A DNA stretch of 64,000 nucleotides from Acidobacteriota bacterium (GTDB lineage Bacteria; Acidobacteriota; UBA6911), in contig JBBIMP010000023.1 in NCBI GenBank assembly GCA_037444305.1, forward strand, positions 2,798-66,797, written 5' to 3'. Each line of letters starts with the position of its first letter. Within the stretch, counting starts at the first letter, position 1. A program made the position numbers and the translations under genes. Below, piece after piece: positions 5,008 through 54,611 of this stretch. Under the pieces are notes generated by a model. That model made no database searches, was not told where the DNA came from, and was given only the letters and a program-made list of their open reading frames with translations.

Positions 5008-6006
5008 ATGATCACCCTCGTTTTCCTGGCTGTCCTCCTGATCCCGGTTGGCGCCGTTGCGGGCATACTGTTCCTGGTTTTCCCCCGCAGGCGCCGGGCG
5101 GTTCTTCGCAGGTCGGCGCTCGCTTATGCATTCCTGGTTCCGGCGCTGCTCTTCGGAGTCGGCCCATGGCTGGCCGCCCGCGCCCTCACTCATGCGGGCA
5201 CGCGCCCGATGGACAGGGTACTGACAGACAGTCCCTCGGCCTACGGCGTGCCCCAGGAAGACATCGAATTCCGCGCCCTGGATGCGGTGCGCCTGAGCGG
5301 GTGGTTCGTCGAACCGTCGGGAAAAAAGCCGGTCCTGGTCTGCACCCACGGGCTGTTCCGCAACCGCGTCGAAGTGCTTGCCCGCATTATGCCGCTCTGC
5401 CGCCAGGGCTATGGCGCCCTCCTCTACGATTCGAGGTCCCACGGTGCCAGCGAGAGAGCGATGGTGTCGCTCGGCTATCACGAAAAAAACGACGTGCTGG
5501 GCGCGGTTCGATATGTTGAGCAGCGGTACCCGGATCCGCTCCTGAGGCCCGGGGTCGTGCTTTTCGGCGTGTCGATGGGAGCGGTGGCTGCGCTCCAGGC
5601 GGCTGCTCAGTCGCACAGTTACGCGGGACTGATCCTCGACAGCCCTTTCTCCAGTCTGGAGCGGACCGTTGCGGACCACTCCTGGCTCTTTCTCAAACTG
5701 CCACGGTTCCCGTTCGTGAATCTCTTCCTGTTCTGGTTCGGGAAGATGGCGACAATCGGCGGAGGCTTCCTCGATTCGGAGGCGGCGATGGCCCGGGTGC
5801 AGCCGGTGCCGCTTCTTCTGATTGCCAGCGAGGGGGACGCGCGGATACCGGCGAGCGTTGCGCAGTCGCTGTACGATGCATCAATCTCGCCGCGGAAGGA
5901 ACTGAAGGTCTTCGGGAAGGACGTCCCGCACGGCGCCGCCTCGCGCCTGCACCCGGAGGAGTACACACGTCTTCTGGAAGACTTCCTCGCTGATTTGGGC
6001 CCATGA
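5008..6006 (+). CDS. Alpha/beta hydrolase with an N-terminal TM segment
   Basis: GVSMG nucleophile elbow (GxSxG), an HG oxyanion region (CTHGLF), and a C-terminal Asp/His region. Confidence 0.75.
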   Translation: MITLVFLAVLLIPVGAVAGILFLVFPRRRRAVLRRSALAYAFLVPALLFGVGPWLAARALTHAGTRPMDRVLTDSPSAYGVPQEDIEFRALDAVRLSGWFVEPSGKKPVLVCTHGLFRNRVEVLARIMPLCRQGYGALLYDSRSHGASERAMVSLGYHEKNDVLGAVRYVEQRYPDPLLRPGVVLFGVSMGAVAALQAAAQSHSYAGLILDSPFSSLERTVADHSWLFLKLPRFPFVNLFLFWFGKMATIGGGFLDSEAAMARVQPVPLLLIASEGDARIPASVAQSLYDASISPRKELKVFGKDVPHGAASRLHPEEYTRLLEDFLADLGP

Positions 6007-8890: not shown

Positions 8891-10152
8891 GTCTGCTCCA
8901 GTCGGTTGAAGACGATGCTGCCTTTCTTGACGGTCATGACACAGTGGTTGGTGCCGTAAAAGTAGGGGATCTCCCTGTAGTCCGCCACGTTCATCAGGGC
9001 GATGTCGGCCTGCTTCCCCTCCTCCAGGCTCCCCAGCCGGTCCGCGAGCCCGAGCGACCAGGCGCCGTTGATCGTCGCCGCGGTGATGGTCTCCGCGGGC
9101 GACATTTTCATATAGCTGCAGGCAATCGAGAGGATGAGCTGCATGTTGAGGTTATACGAGGAGCCGGGGTTGAAGTCGGTGGCGAGGGCGACGGCAACGC
9201 CGGCATCGATCATCCGGCGGGCCGGCGGGTAGCGCGTCAATCCGAGGTTGAAGGCCGTGCCCGGCAGGAGCAGCGCGACCGTGCCCGAGCGGCGGAGCGC
9301 CTCGATGCCGCTGTCTTCGATCCACTCCAGGTGGTCGGCGCTGGCCGCGCCCAGCTCGGCGGCCATCGCAGCGCTGCCCGTGTAGCCGAGTTCCTCGGCA
9401 TGGATCCGGATGCCCAGCCCGGCATCCTTTGCCGCCTGCAGGATGGCACGCCCCTCCTCGAGCGTGAAATAGCCCGAATCGCAGAAGACGTCACAGTACT
9501 GCGCCAGGCCTTCGGCGGCGACGGCGGGGATCATCTCCTCGATGACGAGCCGGACGTACCCGGCCCGGTTGTCCCGGTACTCGTCCGGAACGGCGTGCGC
9601 GCCCAGCAGCGTGGGCACCACCTCGAGCCGGCTGCGGTGTCGGAGCTGCGCCAGCGCACGCAGCAGTTTCAATTCCTCCTCCAGGCTGAGGCCGTACCCG
9701 CTCTTGGCTTCGATGGTCGTGGTGCCGTGCTCCAGGAAGCTCCGGAAACGGACCTCCGCCCGATCGGCAAGCTGTTCCTGTCCGGCGGCCCTCACCTGCC
9801 GGACGCTCGCCCGTATGCCGCCTCCGGCCTCGGCGATCTCCTGGTAGGTTCTGCCCATCGAGCGCATCTCGTATTCCGCCGCGCGCGTGCCGGCAAATAC
9901 GGGATGGGTGTGCGCATCGACGAACCCGGGGAGGGCCACGAGCTCCAAACCCAGCCCGTCGACCGTCTCGATTGCCGCGGCGGCGCCGTTGTTGGGGATT
10001 TCCTTCGTCGGCCCTACCCACTCGATCCGTTCGCCGCGCACCAGGATGGCGCCGTTCTCGATCACGCCCAGTTCCCGCATATCCGCACCCCGCCGCGGTA
10101 TTGTTCCGTTCCGCAGGGTCAGGACCTGGGCGATGTTCTTGATCAGCAGCAT
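8887..10152 (-). CDS. hutI: Imidazolonepropionase
   Basis: An amidohydrolase with FVDAHTHP, DFNPGSS and a KQADIAL C-terminal region. I take the ATG at 10152 inside ORF 8887..10335. Confidence 0.88.
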   Translation of the reverse strand: MLLIKNIAQVLTLRNGTIPRRGADMRELGVIENGAILVRGERIEWVGPTKEIPNNGAAAAIETVDGLGLELVALPGFVDAHTHPVFAGTRAAEYEMRSMGRTYQEIAEAGGGIRASVRQVRAAGQEQLADRAEVRFRSFLEHGTTTIEAKSGYGLSLEEELKLLRALAQLRHRSRLEVVPTLLGAHAVPDEYRDNRAGYVRLVIEEMIPAVAAEGLAQYCDVFCDSGYFTLEEGRAILQAAKDAGLGIRIHAEELGYTGSAAMAAELGAASADHLEWIEDSGIEALRRSGTVALLLPGTAFNLGLTRYPPARRMIDAGVAVALATDFNPGSSYNLNMQLILSIACSYMKMSPAETITAATINGAWSLGLADRLGSLEEGKQADIALMNVADYREIPYFYGTNHCVMTVKKGSIVFNRLEQT

Positions 10153-51807: not shown

Positions 51808-52014
51808 ATGAATCCCCTTTCGCTCGACGGCTTCATTCGCGGCTACGCCGCGGCCTTTGATTACAGGCCTAGAATGTAAGCTTTTACGGCGCCGAATTCA
51901 AACAGGGAAGCAAGGGAAGCGGAGGGAGGGTCGCGGGGAAAAAGGCCGGTCCCCAAGGTCTTCCGTGCGGCAGTTGCTGCCGCACGGAAGACCCTGAGGC
52001 GGACTGGCTACGCG

Positions 52015-53634
<1,620 letters not shown>

Positions 53635-53764
53635 CTCCGAAACTATTCTTGCAATTGTCTTTCATTGTACGTGATGATCCGGGGGTTGTTCCAAAGATAA
53701 TTGGGAACGCCATGAGGGCCCGCATTCTGCAGTATCTCGGGAAGACCGGGAGGCCGGTGCCGAT

Positions 53765-53820
53765 AAAGGGGGACAGGCTACCGTGTCCCTCTGGAGGGAC
53801 ACGGTAGCCTGTCCCCCTTT
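53765..53820. terminator. Perfect 26-bp-stem hairpin with a 4-nt loop, flanked by A-rich 5' and T-rich 3' sequence (a bidirectional intrinsic-terminator-like structure)
   Basis: AAAGGGGGACAGGCTACCGTGTCCCT-ctgg-AGGGACACGGTAGCCTGTCCCCCTTT, then TTTGATT. Confidence 0.6.
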
Positions 53821-53966
53821 TTGATTCTGCTTTACAACCCTCTGCCATTTGATTAACTTGGAGTCATAAACACAGGGGTTTCACCTGGAACCCTCTCGTG
53901 TCATTACCGCTGATGCCCAGGCCATCCCGGTCAGGGCCTCACCTTGCGACCTGAGGAGGAAGCAGC

Positions 53967-54611
53967 ATGACCCTGTCCCGCATTCGCAAAACGCAACTCC
54001 TGGTCGCTTCACTGCTGGCTCTTCTGCTCCCCGCCATCCTTCCTTCGCAGGAAACCGCCCAGGAACAGAAGTTCTTCGAAGTGGAGATCAAGGCGGACGA
54101 GATCTATTCCTACAAGCAACTGAAGTTCACCGGCGACTACACTTCCTTCGAATCCCCCGCCGGTTACCTGGCGCTGGGCCGCACCGAGAAAGGGGTCACG
54201 ATCCTCATCGTACTCGGCGGGGGCACAGTCACCATCACGTCCCCGGATGAGATGCAGGAGAATTTCGCCAAGGTCTTCCCGGCTCATCCGTTCAAAACGG
54301 CCTTCCAAACCCTGTACATGCGCCTCCACCCCCAGGATTTCGAAAACGCCTTCGCGGAGTTTCCCCTGACAAAGGCTCCCAACGAGGAAGCCCTGGCAAA
54401 AGCCAAACTCCTGTTCGAGGAGAGGTTCAGAACGTCCTATCACGCCGGGCACAGGGCGATGTTCCCGCCCGTCAAGACCCGCGTTATGGATTTTCAGACC
54501 GCGGCCATGGGGCTGATCACCACCGAAGAGGGCTACTGGTTGACGCTCCGAAGGCTGTCGCCCTGGGCCAGCGCCTACCCGAAGGGATTCGTCAACCCCA
54601 AGCAGAGATAG
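53967..54611 (+). CDS. Secreted hypothetical protein
   Basis: A signal peptide (LLVASLLALLLPAILPSQE). I recognise no motif. Confidence 0.45.
   Translation: MTLSRIRKTQLLVASLLALLLPAILPSQETAQEQKFFEVEIKADEIYSYKQLKFTGDYTSFESPAGYLALGRTEKGVTILIVLGGGTVTITSPDEMQENFAKVFPAHPFKTAFQTLYMRLHPQDFENAFAEFPLTKAPNEEALAKAKLLFEERFRTSYHAGHRAMFPPVKTRVMDFQTAAMGLITTEEGYWLTLRRLSPWASAYPKGFVNPKQR

What the first reader, a model, noticed from the sequence alone, without database searches (positions are those of the whole stretch)
53765..53820. Perfect 26-bp-stem palindrome between divergently transcribed htrA and a secreted-protein gene
AAAGGGGGACAGGCTACCGTGTCCCT-ctgg-AGGGACACGGTAGCCTGTCCCCCTTT has an A-tract on one side and a T-tract on the other. 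It would be a very stable bidirectional intrinsic terminator. Yet it sits upstream of both flanking genes (htrA starts at 53634 going left, and the next gene starts at 53967 going right), where no terminator is expected.

This implies one of three things: an unannotated short transcript (a small RNA or leader) ending here, a leader or attenuator for the downstream gene, or an inserted palindromic element.
Basis: seen in the sequence. Interest (0 to 1): 0.5.

Follow-up and report, generated by a model that had tools for sequence, protein, structure and literature searches.

The report
Repeat-element hairpin pair at a gene-deletion scar
The perfect palindrome is two inverted copies of a small hairpin repeat that also occurs at unrelated sites in other Acidobacteria-type genomes, and it sits where a 1.4-kb gene present in all sampled relatives has been lost, which explains a terminator-like hairpin with no gene to terminate.

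Summary
The palindrome is real: 27-nt arms, 100% complementary, 2 nt apart, at 53765-53820. It is not a home-grown terminator or a leader.

- **Repeat unit.** Each arm is one copy of a ~30-nt hairpin unit (core GGGACAGGCTACCGTGTCCC). The core recurs in intergenic DNA of an Acidobacteria MAG and on nine metagenome contigs.
- **Pairs.** Units often lie as inverted pairs, always in the same polarity (7 of 7), like REP dimers or REPINs. The window holds the tightest pair, with 6 nt between cores.
- **Lost gene.** In four distinct relatives, a 455-470 aa UvrC-like GIY-YIG gene lies between htrA and the 214-aa gene. Here only its first 17 codons remain (53712-53762), ending flush with the palindrome.
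- **Promoters.** Both conserved promoter-like boxes lie outside the hairpin, so it is not a leader or attenuator.
- **Likely role.** It is probably a non-autonomous element moved by a Y1 (HUH) transposase. That link is suggestive only. On the + strand (27-bp stem, then U5) it should end the vestigial transcript.

It is a new family of a known kind. Interest is modest.

The parts
53765..53820 (.). Perfect palindrome: a head-to-head pair of two repeat units, with 27-nt arms and 2 nt at the centre.
   Evidence: It is the only such repeat in the window.
53765..53791 (+). Left repeat unit. Core GGGACAGGCTACCGTGTCCC at 53770-53789, with A-run flank AAAGG.
   Evidence: Covariance model R1 scores 44 bits, E = 1.7e-10. 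The core is identical to units in L011-L021.
53794..53820 (-). Right repeat unit in inverted orientation. Core at 53796-53815.
   Evidence: R1 scores 38.7 bits, E = 5.8e-9. The next best window match scores 9.6 bits.
53818..53822 (+). Run of five T after the stem on the + strand. This is the U-tract of the terminator-like shape. The - strand has only TTTATC.
53712..53762 (+). Vestige of a GIY-YIG gene: ATG plus 16 codons (MRARILQYLGKTGRPVP). The open frame then runs into the hairpin and stops at TAG 53805-53807 (31 aa in all).
   Evidence: It aligns to residues 1-17, 4-21 or 5-21 and 6-22 of the 455-470 aa proteins encoded at the same place and strand in relatives. It is the best tblastn hit in the intergenic region for all four queries, E = 2e-4 to 9e-3.
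53831..53859 (+). Conserved promoter-like box of the 214-aa gene: TTTACA (53831-53836), 17 nt, TAACTT (53854-53859). It starts 10 nt after the hairpin.
   Evidence: CTTTACA and TAAnTTGG are invariant in 5 of 5 aligned loci (alignment A1).
53668..53693 (-). Conserved ECF-sigma-type promoter-like box of htrA: TGGAAC (53693-53688), 16 nt, CGTA (53671-53668). It lies about 70 nt from the hairpin.
   Evidence: GTTCCA and TACG columns are invariant in 5 of 5 aligned loci (alignment A4).
52015..53625 (-). htrA (DegP-type serine protease with PDZ domains), the left neighbour.
   Evidence: Pfam Trypsin_2 at 1.7e-35 plus PDZ. Gene call of 536 aa.
53967..54611 (+). Gene for a 214-aa protein with a hydrophobic N-terminus and no Pfam family, the right neighbour.

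Best explanation
The palindrome is a head-to-head pair of two identical copies of a short, dispersed hairpin repeat. The unit consensus is AAAAnG-GGGACAGGCTACCGTGTCCC-CnTTTT. It belongs to the REP/REPIN or 'TIR repeat' class of miniature non-autonomous elements found in Acidobacteria-type genomes.

It occupies the slot just upstream of the 214-aa gene's promoter. In relatives that slot holds the 3' end and the hairpin-plus-T-run of a 455-470 aa UvrC-like GIY-YIG gene. In this lineage that gene has been deleted, except for its start codon and 16 further codons, and the break is flush with the left edge of the pair.

**Shown**
- The repeat family exists.
- Its inverted pairs always have the same polarity.
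- The gene is absent here.
- The vestigial N-terminus is present.
- Both promoter-like boxes lie outside the hairpin.

**Inferred**
1. The units are or were mobilised as single-stranded hairpins by a Y1 (HUH) transposase of the RAYT/TIRYT kind. The unit's outer 10 nt, GGKGACAGGC, match 9 of 10 positions of the GGKGACAGAC core in the terminal inverted repeats of one acidobacterial group of such transposase genes, with the same inward polarity.
2. On the + strand, the 27-bp GC-rich stem plus U5 acts as a strong intrinsic terminator. It would end whatever short transcript still starts at the vestigial gene and keep it out of the 214-aa gene's promoter.
3. The deletion was either produced by the element, or the element was already the gene's terminator and survived the deletion.
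For: **A dispersed repeat**
- The exact 20-mer core occurs on two contigs of Acidobacteria MAG JACQDF01 and on nine metagenome contigs.
- Allowing up to 4 mismatches gives 20 units in 12 sources with shared A-run and T-run flanks.
- All sites are intergenic. The neighbouring genes are unrelated: TerC, glutathione peroxidase, a TPP enzyme, O-antigen ligase, a Ser/Thr kinase, an ECF sigma factor, radical SAM and others.
- Six of the nine metagenome loci hold a partner unit within about 100 nt. The chance expectation for one such partner is about 2e-4 per locus (my calculation).

**Pair structure**
- All seven pairs are '+ unit then - unit'. Core spacings are 6 (window), 16, 29, 35, 36, 41 and 84 nt.
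- Three pairs share the spacer motif TCAGCATGnnTCA.
- The stem positions flanking the core covary: UA in 7, CG in 3, GC in 2. Only 1 of 500 shuffles reaches the observed covariation score.

**Gene loss**
- Nine loci, L002-L010, from four distinct relatives (214-aa protein 57-62% identical) were examined.
- All eight that reach the htrA side have htrA(-), then a GIY-YIG gene(+), before the 214-aa gene(+). L004 is cut short but shows the end of a + strand ORF in the same slot.
- The window has only 341 bp between htrA and the 214-aa gene. No GIY-YIG homolog lies elsewhere in its 64 kb.
- The N-terminal 17 residues align at the syntenic position.
- Relatives L002 and L005 carry unrelated hairpins followed by T-runs in the same slot, abutting the conserved CTTTACA.

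**Terminator shape**
- It is by far the strongest candidate in 20 kb.

**Transposase lead**
- The motif GGGGWSAS is reported for inverted repeats flanking TIRYT genes (PMC3733652), and the unit starts GGGGACAG.
- K. versatilis aba2776 has 28-bp inverted repeats GGGGAAAATCGGGGACAGACGAAATAAT. Homologous elements show CGGGGACAGACGG and GGTGACAGACAGG, all pointing inward.

**Literature fit**
- REP dimers 1-5 bp apart that fold as one large stem-loop are a described arrangement (PMC3733652).
Against: - **Copy number.** The window's own genome is in neither scanned collection, so copy number there is unknown. The 64-kb window holds only this one pair, a low density for a REP family.
- **No cognate transposase.** No Y1 transposase gene lies in the window or in any repeat-bearing locus. 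No transposase gene flanked by this exact unit was found.
- **A different repeat around other RAYT-like genes.** Two acidobacterial RAYT-like genes examined are flanked by another hairpin, CCCAGGTCTC-N6-GAGACCTGGG.
- **Weak basis for the transposase link.** It rests on a match of 9 out of 10 nt.
- **Short vestige.** The remaining N-terminus is only 17 residues, so its homology rests on position as much as on score.
- **Distant relatives.** The closest is 62% identical in the 214-aa protein. Whether the pair came before, caused or followed the deletion cannot be decided.
- **No expression data.** Intrinsic-terminator-like sites are only weakly enriched in this genome (27 against 17.8 +/- 4.5, and 23 against 17.4 +/- 4.1). 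Termination at hairpin plus U-run is therefore assumed, not shown.
Confidence: 0.75

Rival explanations
1. It is a locally evolved intrinsic terminator of a genuine small RNA or small-protein gene transcribed divergently from htrA, not a mobile or repeated element.
For: The shape is a strong terminator on the + strand. A 31-aa open frame (53712-53807) and a -10-like GATAAT lie upstream.
Against: - The arm core recurs, identical over 20 nt including its 8-nt centre, at unrelated loci in other organisms.
- The open frame's first 17 residues are the N-terminus of a 455-470 aa protein in relatives, and the remainder is encoded by the repeat itself.
- No Rfam family matches.
Confidence: 0.08
2. It is a leader or attenuator hairpin in the 5' untranslated region of the 214-aa gene.
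For: It lies 146 nt upstream of that gene's start and is followed by a U-run.
Against: - The conserved TTTACA-N17-TAAnTT box lies downstream of the hairpin in 5 of 5 loci. This includes L007, where the upstream neighbour is a different gene.
- Relatives have no such hairpin sequence.
- No alternative antiterminator pairing and no riboswitch match were found.
Confidence: 0.04
3. It is an assembly artefact: a chimeric or fold-back join in the MAG that created both the palindrome and the apparent deletion.
For: - Perfect palindromes at a structural difference from relatives are a classic artefact signature.
- The window comes from a metagenome-assembled genome.
Against: - The two sides of the junction are syntenic neighbours in the right order and orientation.
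- Inverted pairs of the same unit occur in six other independently assembled contigs.
- The exact 214-aa protein is on record on three contigs with mostly the same neighbours. I could not read the other two.
Confidence: 0.04
4. It is a DNA-level regulatory site between two divergent promoters: a cruciform or a binding site for a dimeric protein or gyrase that couples htrA and 214-aa gene expression to supercoiling.
For: - It sits upstream of both promoter-like boxes, about 70 nt and 10 nt away. Divergent transcription would generate negative supercoiling there (general knowledge).
- REP elements are reported to be involved in DNA supercoiling (abstract of PMC3733652).
Against: - The sequence is absent from the same intergenic region in all relatives examined, although both promoters are conserved.
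- The same unit sits mostly 3' of genes at unrelated loci.
- Nothing here tests binding.
Confidence: 0.07

Closest known systems
REP dimers, BIMEs and REPINs (Enterobacteria, Pseudomonas, Stenotrophomonas), mobilised by RAYT Y1 transposases
   Same: - The unit is a short imperfect palindrome with a bulged stem.
- It is extragenic and dispersed.
- It often occurs as inverted pairs that can fold separately or as one long hairpin.
- Spacings of 1-5 bp or 20-100 bp are both described (PMC3733652; REPIN definition in PMC3337134).
   Different: - There is no unpaired terminal GTAG or CGTC tag. GTAG occurs only inside the loop of the - orientation.
- No cognate RAYT was found.
- The host phylum is Acidobacteria, not Proteobacteria.
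- The units carry A-run and T-run flanks, so each looks like a bidirectional terminator.
- Copy number per genome is unknown.
TIR repeat families of TIRtrons (TIRYT Y1 transposase genes; Di Nocera et al. 2013), especially the aba2776-type elements of Koribacter versatilis
   Same: - The unit starts with GGGGACAG, which fits the reported GGGGWSAS motif.
- It matches 9 of 10 nt of the GGKGACAGAC core of the inverted repeats I read around aba2776-type genes.
- The motif points inward in both the pairs and the TIRtrons.
- Some described TIR families are self-complementary and lie close together.
   Different: - The rest of the unit, including the self-complementary half, is not shared with those inverted repeats.
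- No transposase lies between or beside any copy.
- The link is a sequence resemblance, not a demonstrated association.
Orphan terminators and gene remnants left by deletion (ordinary genome decay)
   Same: A start codon plus 16 further codons, followed by a terminator-like hairpin, sit in the slot where relatives have a full gene followed by a hairpin and T-run.
   Different: The hairpin is not homologous to the relatives' hairpins. It is a repeat-family member, and the deletion edge is flush with it.
Bidirectional intrinsic terminators
   Same: A-run, GC-rich stem, T-run.
   Different: - The 27-bp perfect stem is far longer than usual.
- Only one side has a real U-run.
- No gene now ends at it.

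Membership tests
REP / REPIN | Short (about 20-40 nt) imperfect palindromic unit | tested here: met
   The 20-nt core has a 6-bp stem, two inner G-C pairs and a bulged G. The consensus 32-mer folds at -12.5 kcal/mol as single-stranded DNA, z = -6.7.
REP / REPIN | Extragenic and dispersed among unrelated loci | tested here: met
   There are 20 units in 12 sources, all between ORFs, with unrelated neighbouring genes.
REP / REPIN | High copy number within one genome (tens to hundreds) | tested here: inconclusive
   - Two exact copies lie on two contigs of MAG JACQDF01.
- There are 4 units on the 9.9-kb contig L015 and 3 on the 11-kb contig L013.
- The 64-kb window has only one pair.
- No whole genome was available.
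REP / REPIN | Inverted doublets of fixed polarity that form a larger hairpin | tested here: met
   All 7 pairs are head-to-head and none is tail-to-tail or direct. The window pair folds as one 27-bp stem.
REP / REPIN | Unpaired terminal GTAG (or CGTC) tag | tested here: not met
   The consensus nnnAAAAAnGGGGACAGGCTACCGTGTCCCCATTnTT has no such tag at either end. GTAG lies inside the loop on one strand (definition from PMC3733652).
REP / REPIN | Cognate single-copy RAYT gene flanked by the same units | tested here: inconclusive
   - No Y1 transposase lies in the window or the repeat loci.
- RAYT-like genes P0157 and P0062 are flanked by a different hairpin.
- The genomes that carry the unit could not be searched as a whole.
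TIR repeats of TIRtrons (TIRYT) | GGGGWSAS-type motif at the repeat, pointing towards the inside of the element | tested here: met
   The unit starts GGGGACAG (GTGACAG in three units). The motif points inward in all 7 pairs, as in L042, L046, L056 and L059.
TIR repeats of TIRtrons (TIRYT) | The same repeat flanks a TIRYT gene in the same genome | not testable with these tools
   The collection scans and contig look-ups are exhausted, and no full genome of a host is held.
Intrinsic (Rho-independent) terminator | GC-rich hairpin directly followed by a U-run | tested here: met
   On the + strand the stem is followed by UUUUUGAUU. The - strand has only UUUAUC.
Intrinsic (Rho-independent) terminator | Transcript 3' ends map just after the hairpin | not testable with these tools
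   No expression data are available.
Leader / attenuator / riboswitch of the downstream gene | Promoter upstream of the hairpin and a conserved alternative structure or aptamer | tested here: not met
   The conserved promoter-like box is downstream of the hairpin. There is no Rfam match other than spurious miRNA-hairpin hits far below threshold. The hairpin is absent in relatives.

The most novel reading that the evidence does not exclude
The hairpin units behave like IS200/IS605-type transposon ends, and their transposase can excise whatever lies between two inverted units. This would leave a tight doublet flush with the surviving flanks. The repeat family would then be an agent of precise gene deletion in Acidobacteria.

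Two of the seven doublets seen fit this picture:
- In the window, the GIY-YIG gene is cut after codon 17, flush with the doublet.
- In L015, a TerC-family ORF loses homology at ...LLGVIVQ exactly at the unit flank, 25 nt before the next gene's start.
Probability: 0.15. Interest if true: 0.55.

Novelty: new member of a known kind. Interest (0 to 1): 0.3.

Why it matters
- **It resolves the puzzle.** A strong terminator-like hairpin upstream of two divergent genes is the residue of a lost gene plus a repeat element.
- **It adds a repeat family.** I found no earlier description of this hairpin repeat (no paper in the searched library contains the core sequence). It comes from a phylum where such elements are little studied.
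- **It offers a lead to the transposase.** The resemblance to aba2776-type inverted repeats points to the Y1 transposase group that may move it.
- **It matters for annotation.** The 31-aa open frame and any 'small RNA' called here should be treated as a gene vestige.
- **It may bear on gene loss.** If the flush deletion edges seen twice are not coincidence, these elements could be a direct cause of gene loss.

Tried and rejected
- **Rfam.** The whole window at gathering threshold gave nothing. The region at E <= 10 gave only miRNA-precursor and other hits far below their thresholds, caused by the long stem. Five repeat-bearing contigs also gave nothing.
- **Other copies in the window.** Mismatch search, pattern search and covariance model R1 with filters off all found none.
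- **Copies in the syntenic loci of relatives or around RAYT-like genes.** None were found.
- **Viral contigs.** No match to the 20-mer.
- **Y1 transposase in the window or repeat loci.** A motif regex found none, but it was too narrow because it missed PEHVH. tblastn with seven RAYT/TIRYT sequences taken from PMC3733652 supplement 5 also found none at E <= 0.01.
- **Acidobacterial RAYT group (aba3477-like).** It has at least 8000 clusters. Two members examined are flanked by an unrelated hairpin repeat. The K. versatilis protein P0054 was not on record.
- **aba2776-like group.** Its terminal repeats share only the 10-nt core with the unit, not the whole unit.
- **Tricorn-like ORF next to the second L015 doublet.** No PDB or NCBIfam match, so whether it is truncated is left open.
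- **Second long hairpin at 51951-51999.** It is not repeated in any locus held.
- **A relocated GIY-YIG gene elsewhere in the window.** No credible tblastn hit.
- **Literature search for the core sequence.** No paper found.

Full report
**Observation.** The sequence at 53765-53820 is AAAGGGGGACAGGCTACCGTGTCCCTC-tg-GAGGGACACGGTAGCCTGTCCCCCTTT. It has two 27-nt arms, 100% complementary, 2 nt apart.
- It is the longest and only perfect inverted repeat in the window. A 23-mer from the arm matches nowhere else in the window, and no shuffle gives a match.
- As RNA it folds at -67 kcal/mol on the + strand and -65 on the - strand, with z-scores near -8.
- The two sides are not equivalent. The + strand hairpin is followed by UUUUUGAUU and the - strand hairpin by UUUAUC.
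- Each arm contains its own small palindrome, GGGACA-N8-TGTCCC.
- The window is contig CAZIEJ010000011.1 of MAG GCA_964538715.1.

**What the flanks are.**
- The left neighbour is a DegP/HtrA protease on the - strand. It most likely starts at the ATG at 53625, not the GTG at 53634.
- The right neighbour is a 214-aa protein with no Pfam family. Its 51 non-self homologs are at most 64% identical locally (62% for the closest full-length match). The one named source is an Acidobacteriia MAG.

**A gene is missing here.**
- I fetched nine loci, L002-L010, around four of those homologs. All eight that reach the htrA side show htrA(-), then a 455-470 aa GIY-YIG gene on the + strand, before the 214-aa gene. 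L004 is cut short but shows the end of a + strand ORF in the same slot. In L007 and L008 an alanine dehydrogenase gene is inserted as well.
- The GIY-YIG domain is of the UvrC/Cho type.
- The window has only 341 bp between the two genes, and no GIY-YIG homolog lies anywhere in its 64 kb.
- The + strand ORF starting at ATG 53712 reads MRARILQYLGKTGRPVP. This aligns with the very N-termini of the relatives' proteins (MRDRIASYLEKAGTALP, VREKIADYLAKAGRPLP, VRERILAFLKTCARPLP). It is the best hit in the intergenic region for all four queries, E = 2e-4 to 9e-3.
- Homology stops at 53762-53764, exactly at the left edge of the palindrome. The frame then runs through the left arm and into the right arm, to a TAG at 53805-53807.

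**Both promoters lie outside the hairpin.**
- Downstream of the palindrome, CTTTACA-N17-TAAnTTGG is invariant in all five aligned loci. The window's -35 is at 53831-53836 and its -10 at 53854-53859.
- On the other side, TGGAAC-N16-CGTA, an ECF-sigma-type box, is invariant upstream of htrA at 53693-53668 on the - strand.
- The hairpin therefore lies upstream of both promoter-like boxes and is not part of either leader.
- In relatives L002 and L005, the stretch between the GIY-YIG stop codon and CTTTACA folds into unrelated hairpins followed by a T-run. The palindrome thus occupies what is a terminator slot in relatives.

**The arm is a repeat unit.**
- A scan of 185,579 species-representative genomes with the 20-mer GGGACAGGCTACCGTGTCCC found two single copies on two contigs of Acidobacteria MAG JACQDF01. 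A metagenome scan found nine more contigs.
- Chance alone would give about one match in each collection. These matches, however, share flanks (AAAtG...CAttTT), are all intergenic, and six of the nine metagenome contigs carry a second, slightly diverged unit within about 100 nt.
- In total I aligned 20 units from 12 sources. The stem positions just outside the core covary (UA in 7, CG in 3, GC in 2). Only 1 of 500 shuffles reaches the observed covariation score.
- Neighbouring genes are unrelated housekeeping genes.
- All seven pairs have the same polarity, + unit then - unit. Core spacings are 6 (window), 16, 29, 35, 36, 41 and 84 nt. Three pairs share a spacer motif.
- In the window, the two units are identical and nearly abut. 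Separately they fold weakly (-7.4 and -6.2 kcal/mol as DNA), but together they fold at -34.4 kcal/mol.
- A covariance model of the unit finds only these two copies in the window (44 and 38.7 bits; next best 9.6). It finds none in the relatives' syntenic loci.

**Comparison with known elements.**
- Short imperfect palindromes that are extragenic, dispersed and often paired in inverted orientation define REPs and REPINs. Pairs 1-5 bp apart that fold as one large stem-loop are described (PMC3733652; PMC3337134 abstract).
- The unit lacks the terminal GTAG or CGTC tag of the two large REP super-families, so I do not file it there.
- The same paper reports that inverted repeats flanking 'TIRYT' Y1 transposase genes share the motif GGGGWSAS, and that Acidobacteria have their own TIRYT group. 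The unit starts GGGGACAG.
- I took the TIRYT sequences from that paper's supplement and found no such gene in the window or in any repeat-bearing locus.
- Homologs of the aba3477 group are flanked by a different hairpin repeat, GGGTGCCCCAGGTCTCGATTTTGAGACCTGGG.
- Homologs of aba2776 are flanked by inverted repeats whose core is GGKGACAGAC: K. versatilis GGGGAAAATCGGGGACAGACGAAATAAT, and others CGGGGACAGACGG and GGTGACAGACAGG. These point inward.
- The unit's outer end is GGKGACAGGC and also points inward in every pair. This is a 9-of-10 nt resemblance with matching polarity. It is a lead to the mobilising enzyme, not proof.

**Mechanism.**
- Shown:
  - The palindrome is a pair of repeat units.
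  - The GIY-YIG gene is lost, leaving a 17-codon vestige flush with the pair.
  - Both promoter-like boxes lie outside the hairpin.
- Inferred:
  - The vestigial gene start may still be transcribed.
  - A 27-bp GC-rich stem plus U5 would stop that transcript within about 110-120 nt and shield the 214-aa gene's promoter, which begins 10 nt further on.
  - Such a long perfect RNA duplex would also be an RNase III substrate (general knowledge).
  - Canonical terminator-like sites are only weakly enriched in this genome, so this step needs an experiment.
- Not resolved:
  - Whether the pair was already the gene's terminator or arrived with the deletion cannot be decided, because the nearest relatives are too distant.
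  - A perfect homodimer pair is the kind of structure expected to provoke replication slippage and nuclease attack (discussion in PMC3733652).

**A second flush truncation.**
- On contig L015, a TerC-family ORF loses homology (Pfam profile 2-105 of 178; sequence ...LLGVIVQ) exactly at the flank of another doublet. The next gene starts 25 nt after that doublet.
- Two of seven doublets next to flush gene truncations is a small sample. It is nevertheless what transposase-mediated excision between two units would produce. I give that reading about 15%.

**Caveats.**
- The window's genome was in neither scanned collection, so copy number there is unknown.
- The assembly could not be checked against reads. 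The exact 214-aa protein is recorded on three contigs with largely the same neighbours, but I could read only one of them.
- There are no expression data.

**Verdict.**
The 'inserted palindromic element' option is right, and the 'short transcript' option is right only in the sense of a gene vestige. The 'leader or attenuator' option is not supported.
- The finding is a new family of a known kind of element. It adds an ordinary, if neat, explanation for the misplaced terminator.

Noticed in passing
window 51951-51999: A second long hairpin (23-nt arms, 91% complementary; RNA fold -56 kcal/mol, z = -6) lies just 3' of the htrA stop on the - strand, with a T-run 9 nt after the stem. It is probably htrA's terminator. 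It is not repeated in any locus held.
   Followed up: partly
window 53668-53693 (- strand): An ECF-sigma-type promoter-like box, TGGAAC-N16-CGTA, is invariant upstream of htrA in all five loci aligned. This fits envelope-stress control of this protease. hrcA-grpE-dnaK-dnaJ lies further downstream on the same strand.
   Followed up: partly
L015 4983-5504 with doublet at 5385-5485: A TerC-family ORF loses homology exactly at the flank of a repeat doublet, and the next gene (a Ser/Thr kinase) starts 25 nt after the doublet. This is a second case of a gene truncated flush with a doublet.
   Followed up: partly
L015 8866-8961 and ORF 8954-9934 (-): A second doublet on the same contig abuts the 3' end of an ORF with PD40 and Tricorn_C1 domains. 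Whether that gene is also truncated could not be settled.
   Followed up: partly
L012 1126-1165: A single unit is squeezed between two convergent, apparently complete genes (a glutathione peroxidase and a TPP enzyme). Both stop codons overlap the unit, and one of them is the TAG in the unit's loop.
   Followed up: no
L024 about 1469-1500; L033 about 1454-1485 and two inverted copies downstream of the gene: Single-copy acidobacterial RAYT-like genes (aba3477 group) are flanked by a different hairpin repeat, GGGTGCCCCAGGTCTCGATTTTGAGACCTGGG. This looks like a REPtron-type arrangement in Acidobacteria.
   Followed up: partly
L042 1094-1121 and 1915-1942; L046 and L048 upstream region: aba2776-type Y1 transposase genes have 28-bp terminal inverted repeats preceded by short tandem GAAAATCGGG-like motifs. 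In L046 and L048 the element sits next to the 3' end of a tRNA gene. Most homologs are on 1-2 kb contigs, which suggests multicopy elements.
   Followed up: partly
window 53967-54611 and leader 53866-53966: The 214-aa protein family has no Pfam domain and only 51 non-self homologs, found in MAGs and metagenomes. Its gene has a conserved promoter-like box and a leader of about 100 nt with patches of conservation among relatives.
   Followed up: no
relatives L002-L010 (e.g. L002 2401-3786): A conserved 455-470 aa protein combines an N-terminal helix-turn-helix-like segment with a UvrC/Cho-type GIY-YIG domain. It is always divergent from htrA. Its function is unknown and it has been lost in the window's lineage.
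   Followed up: partly
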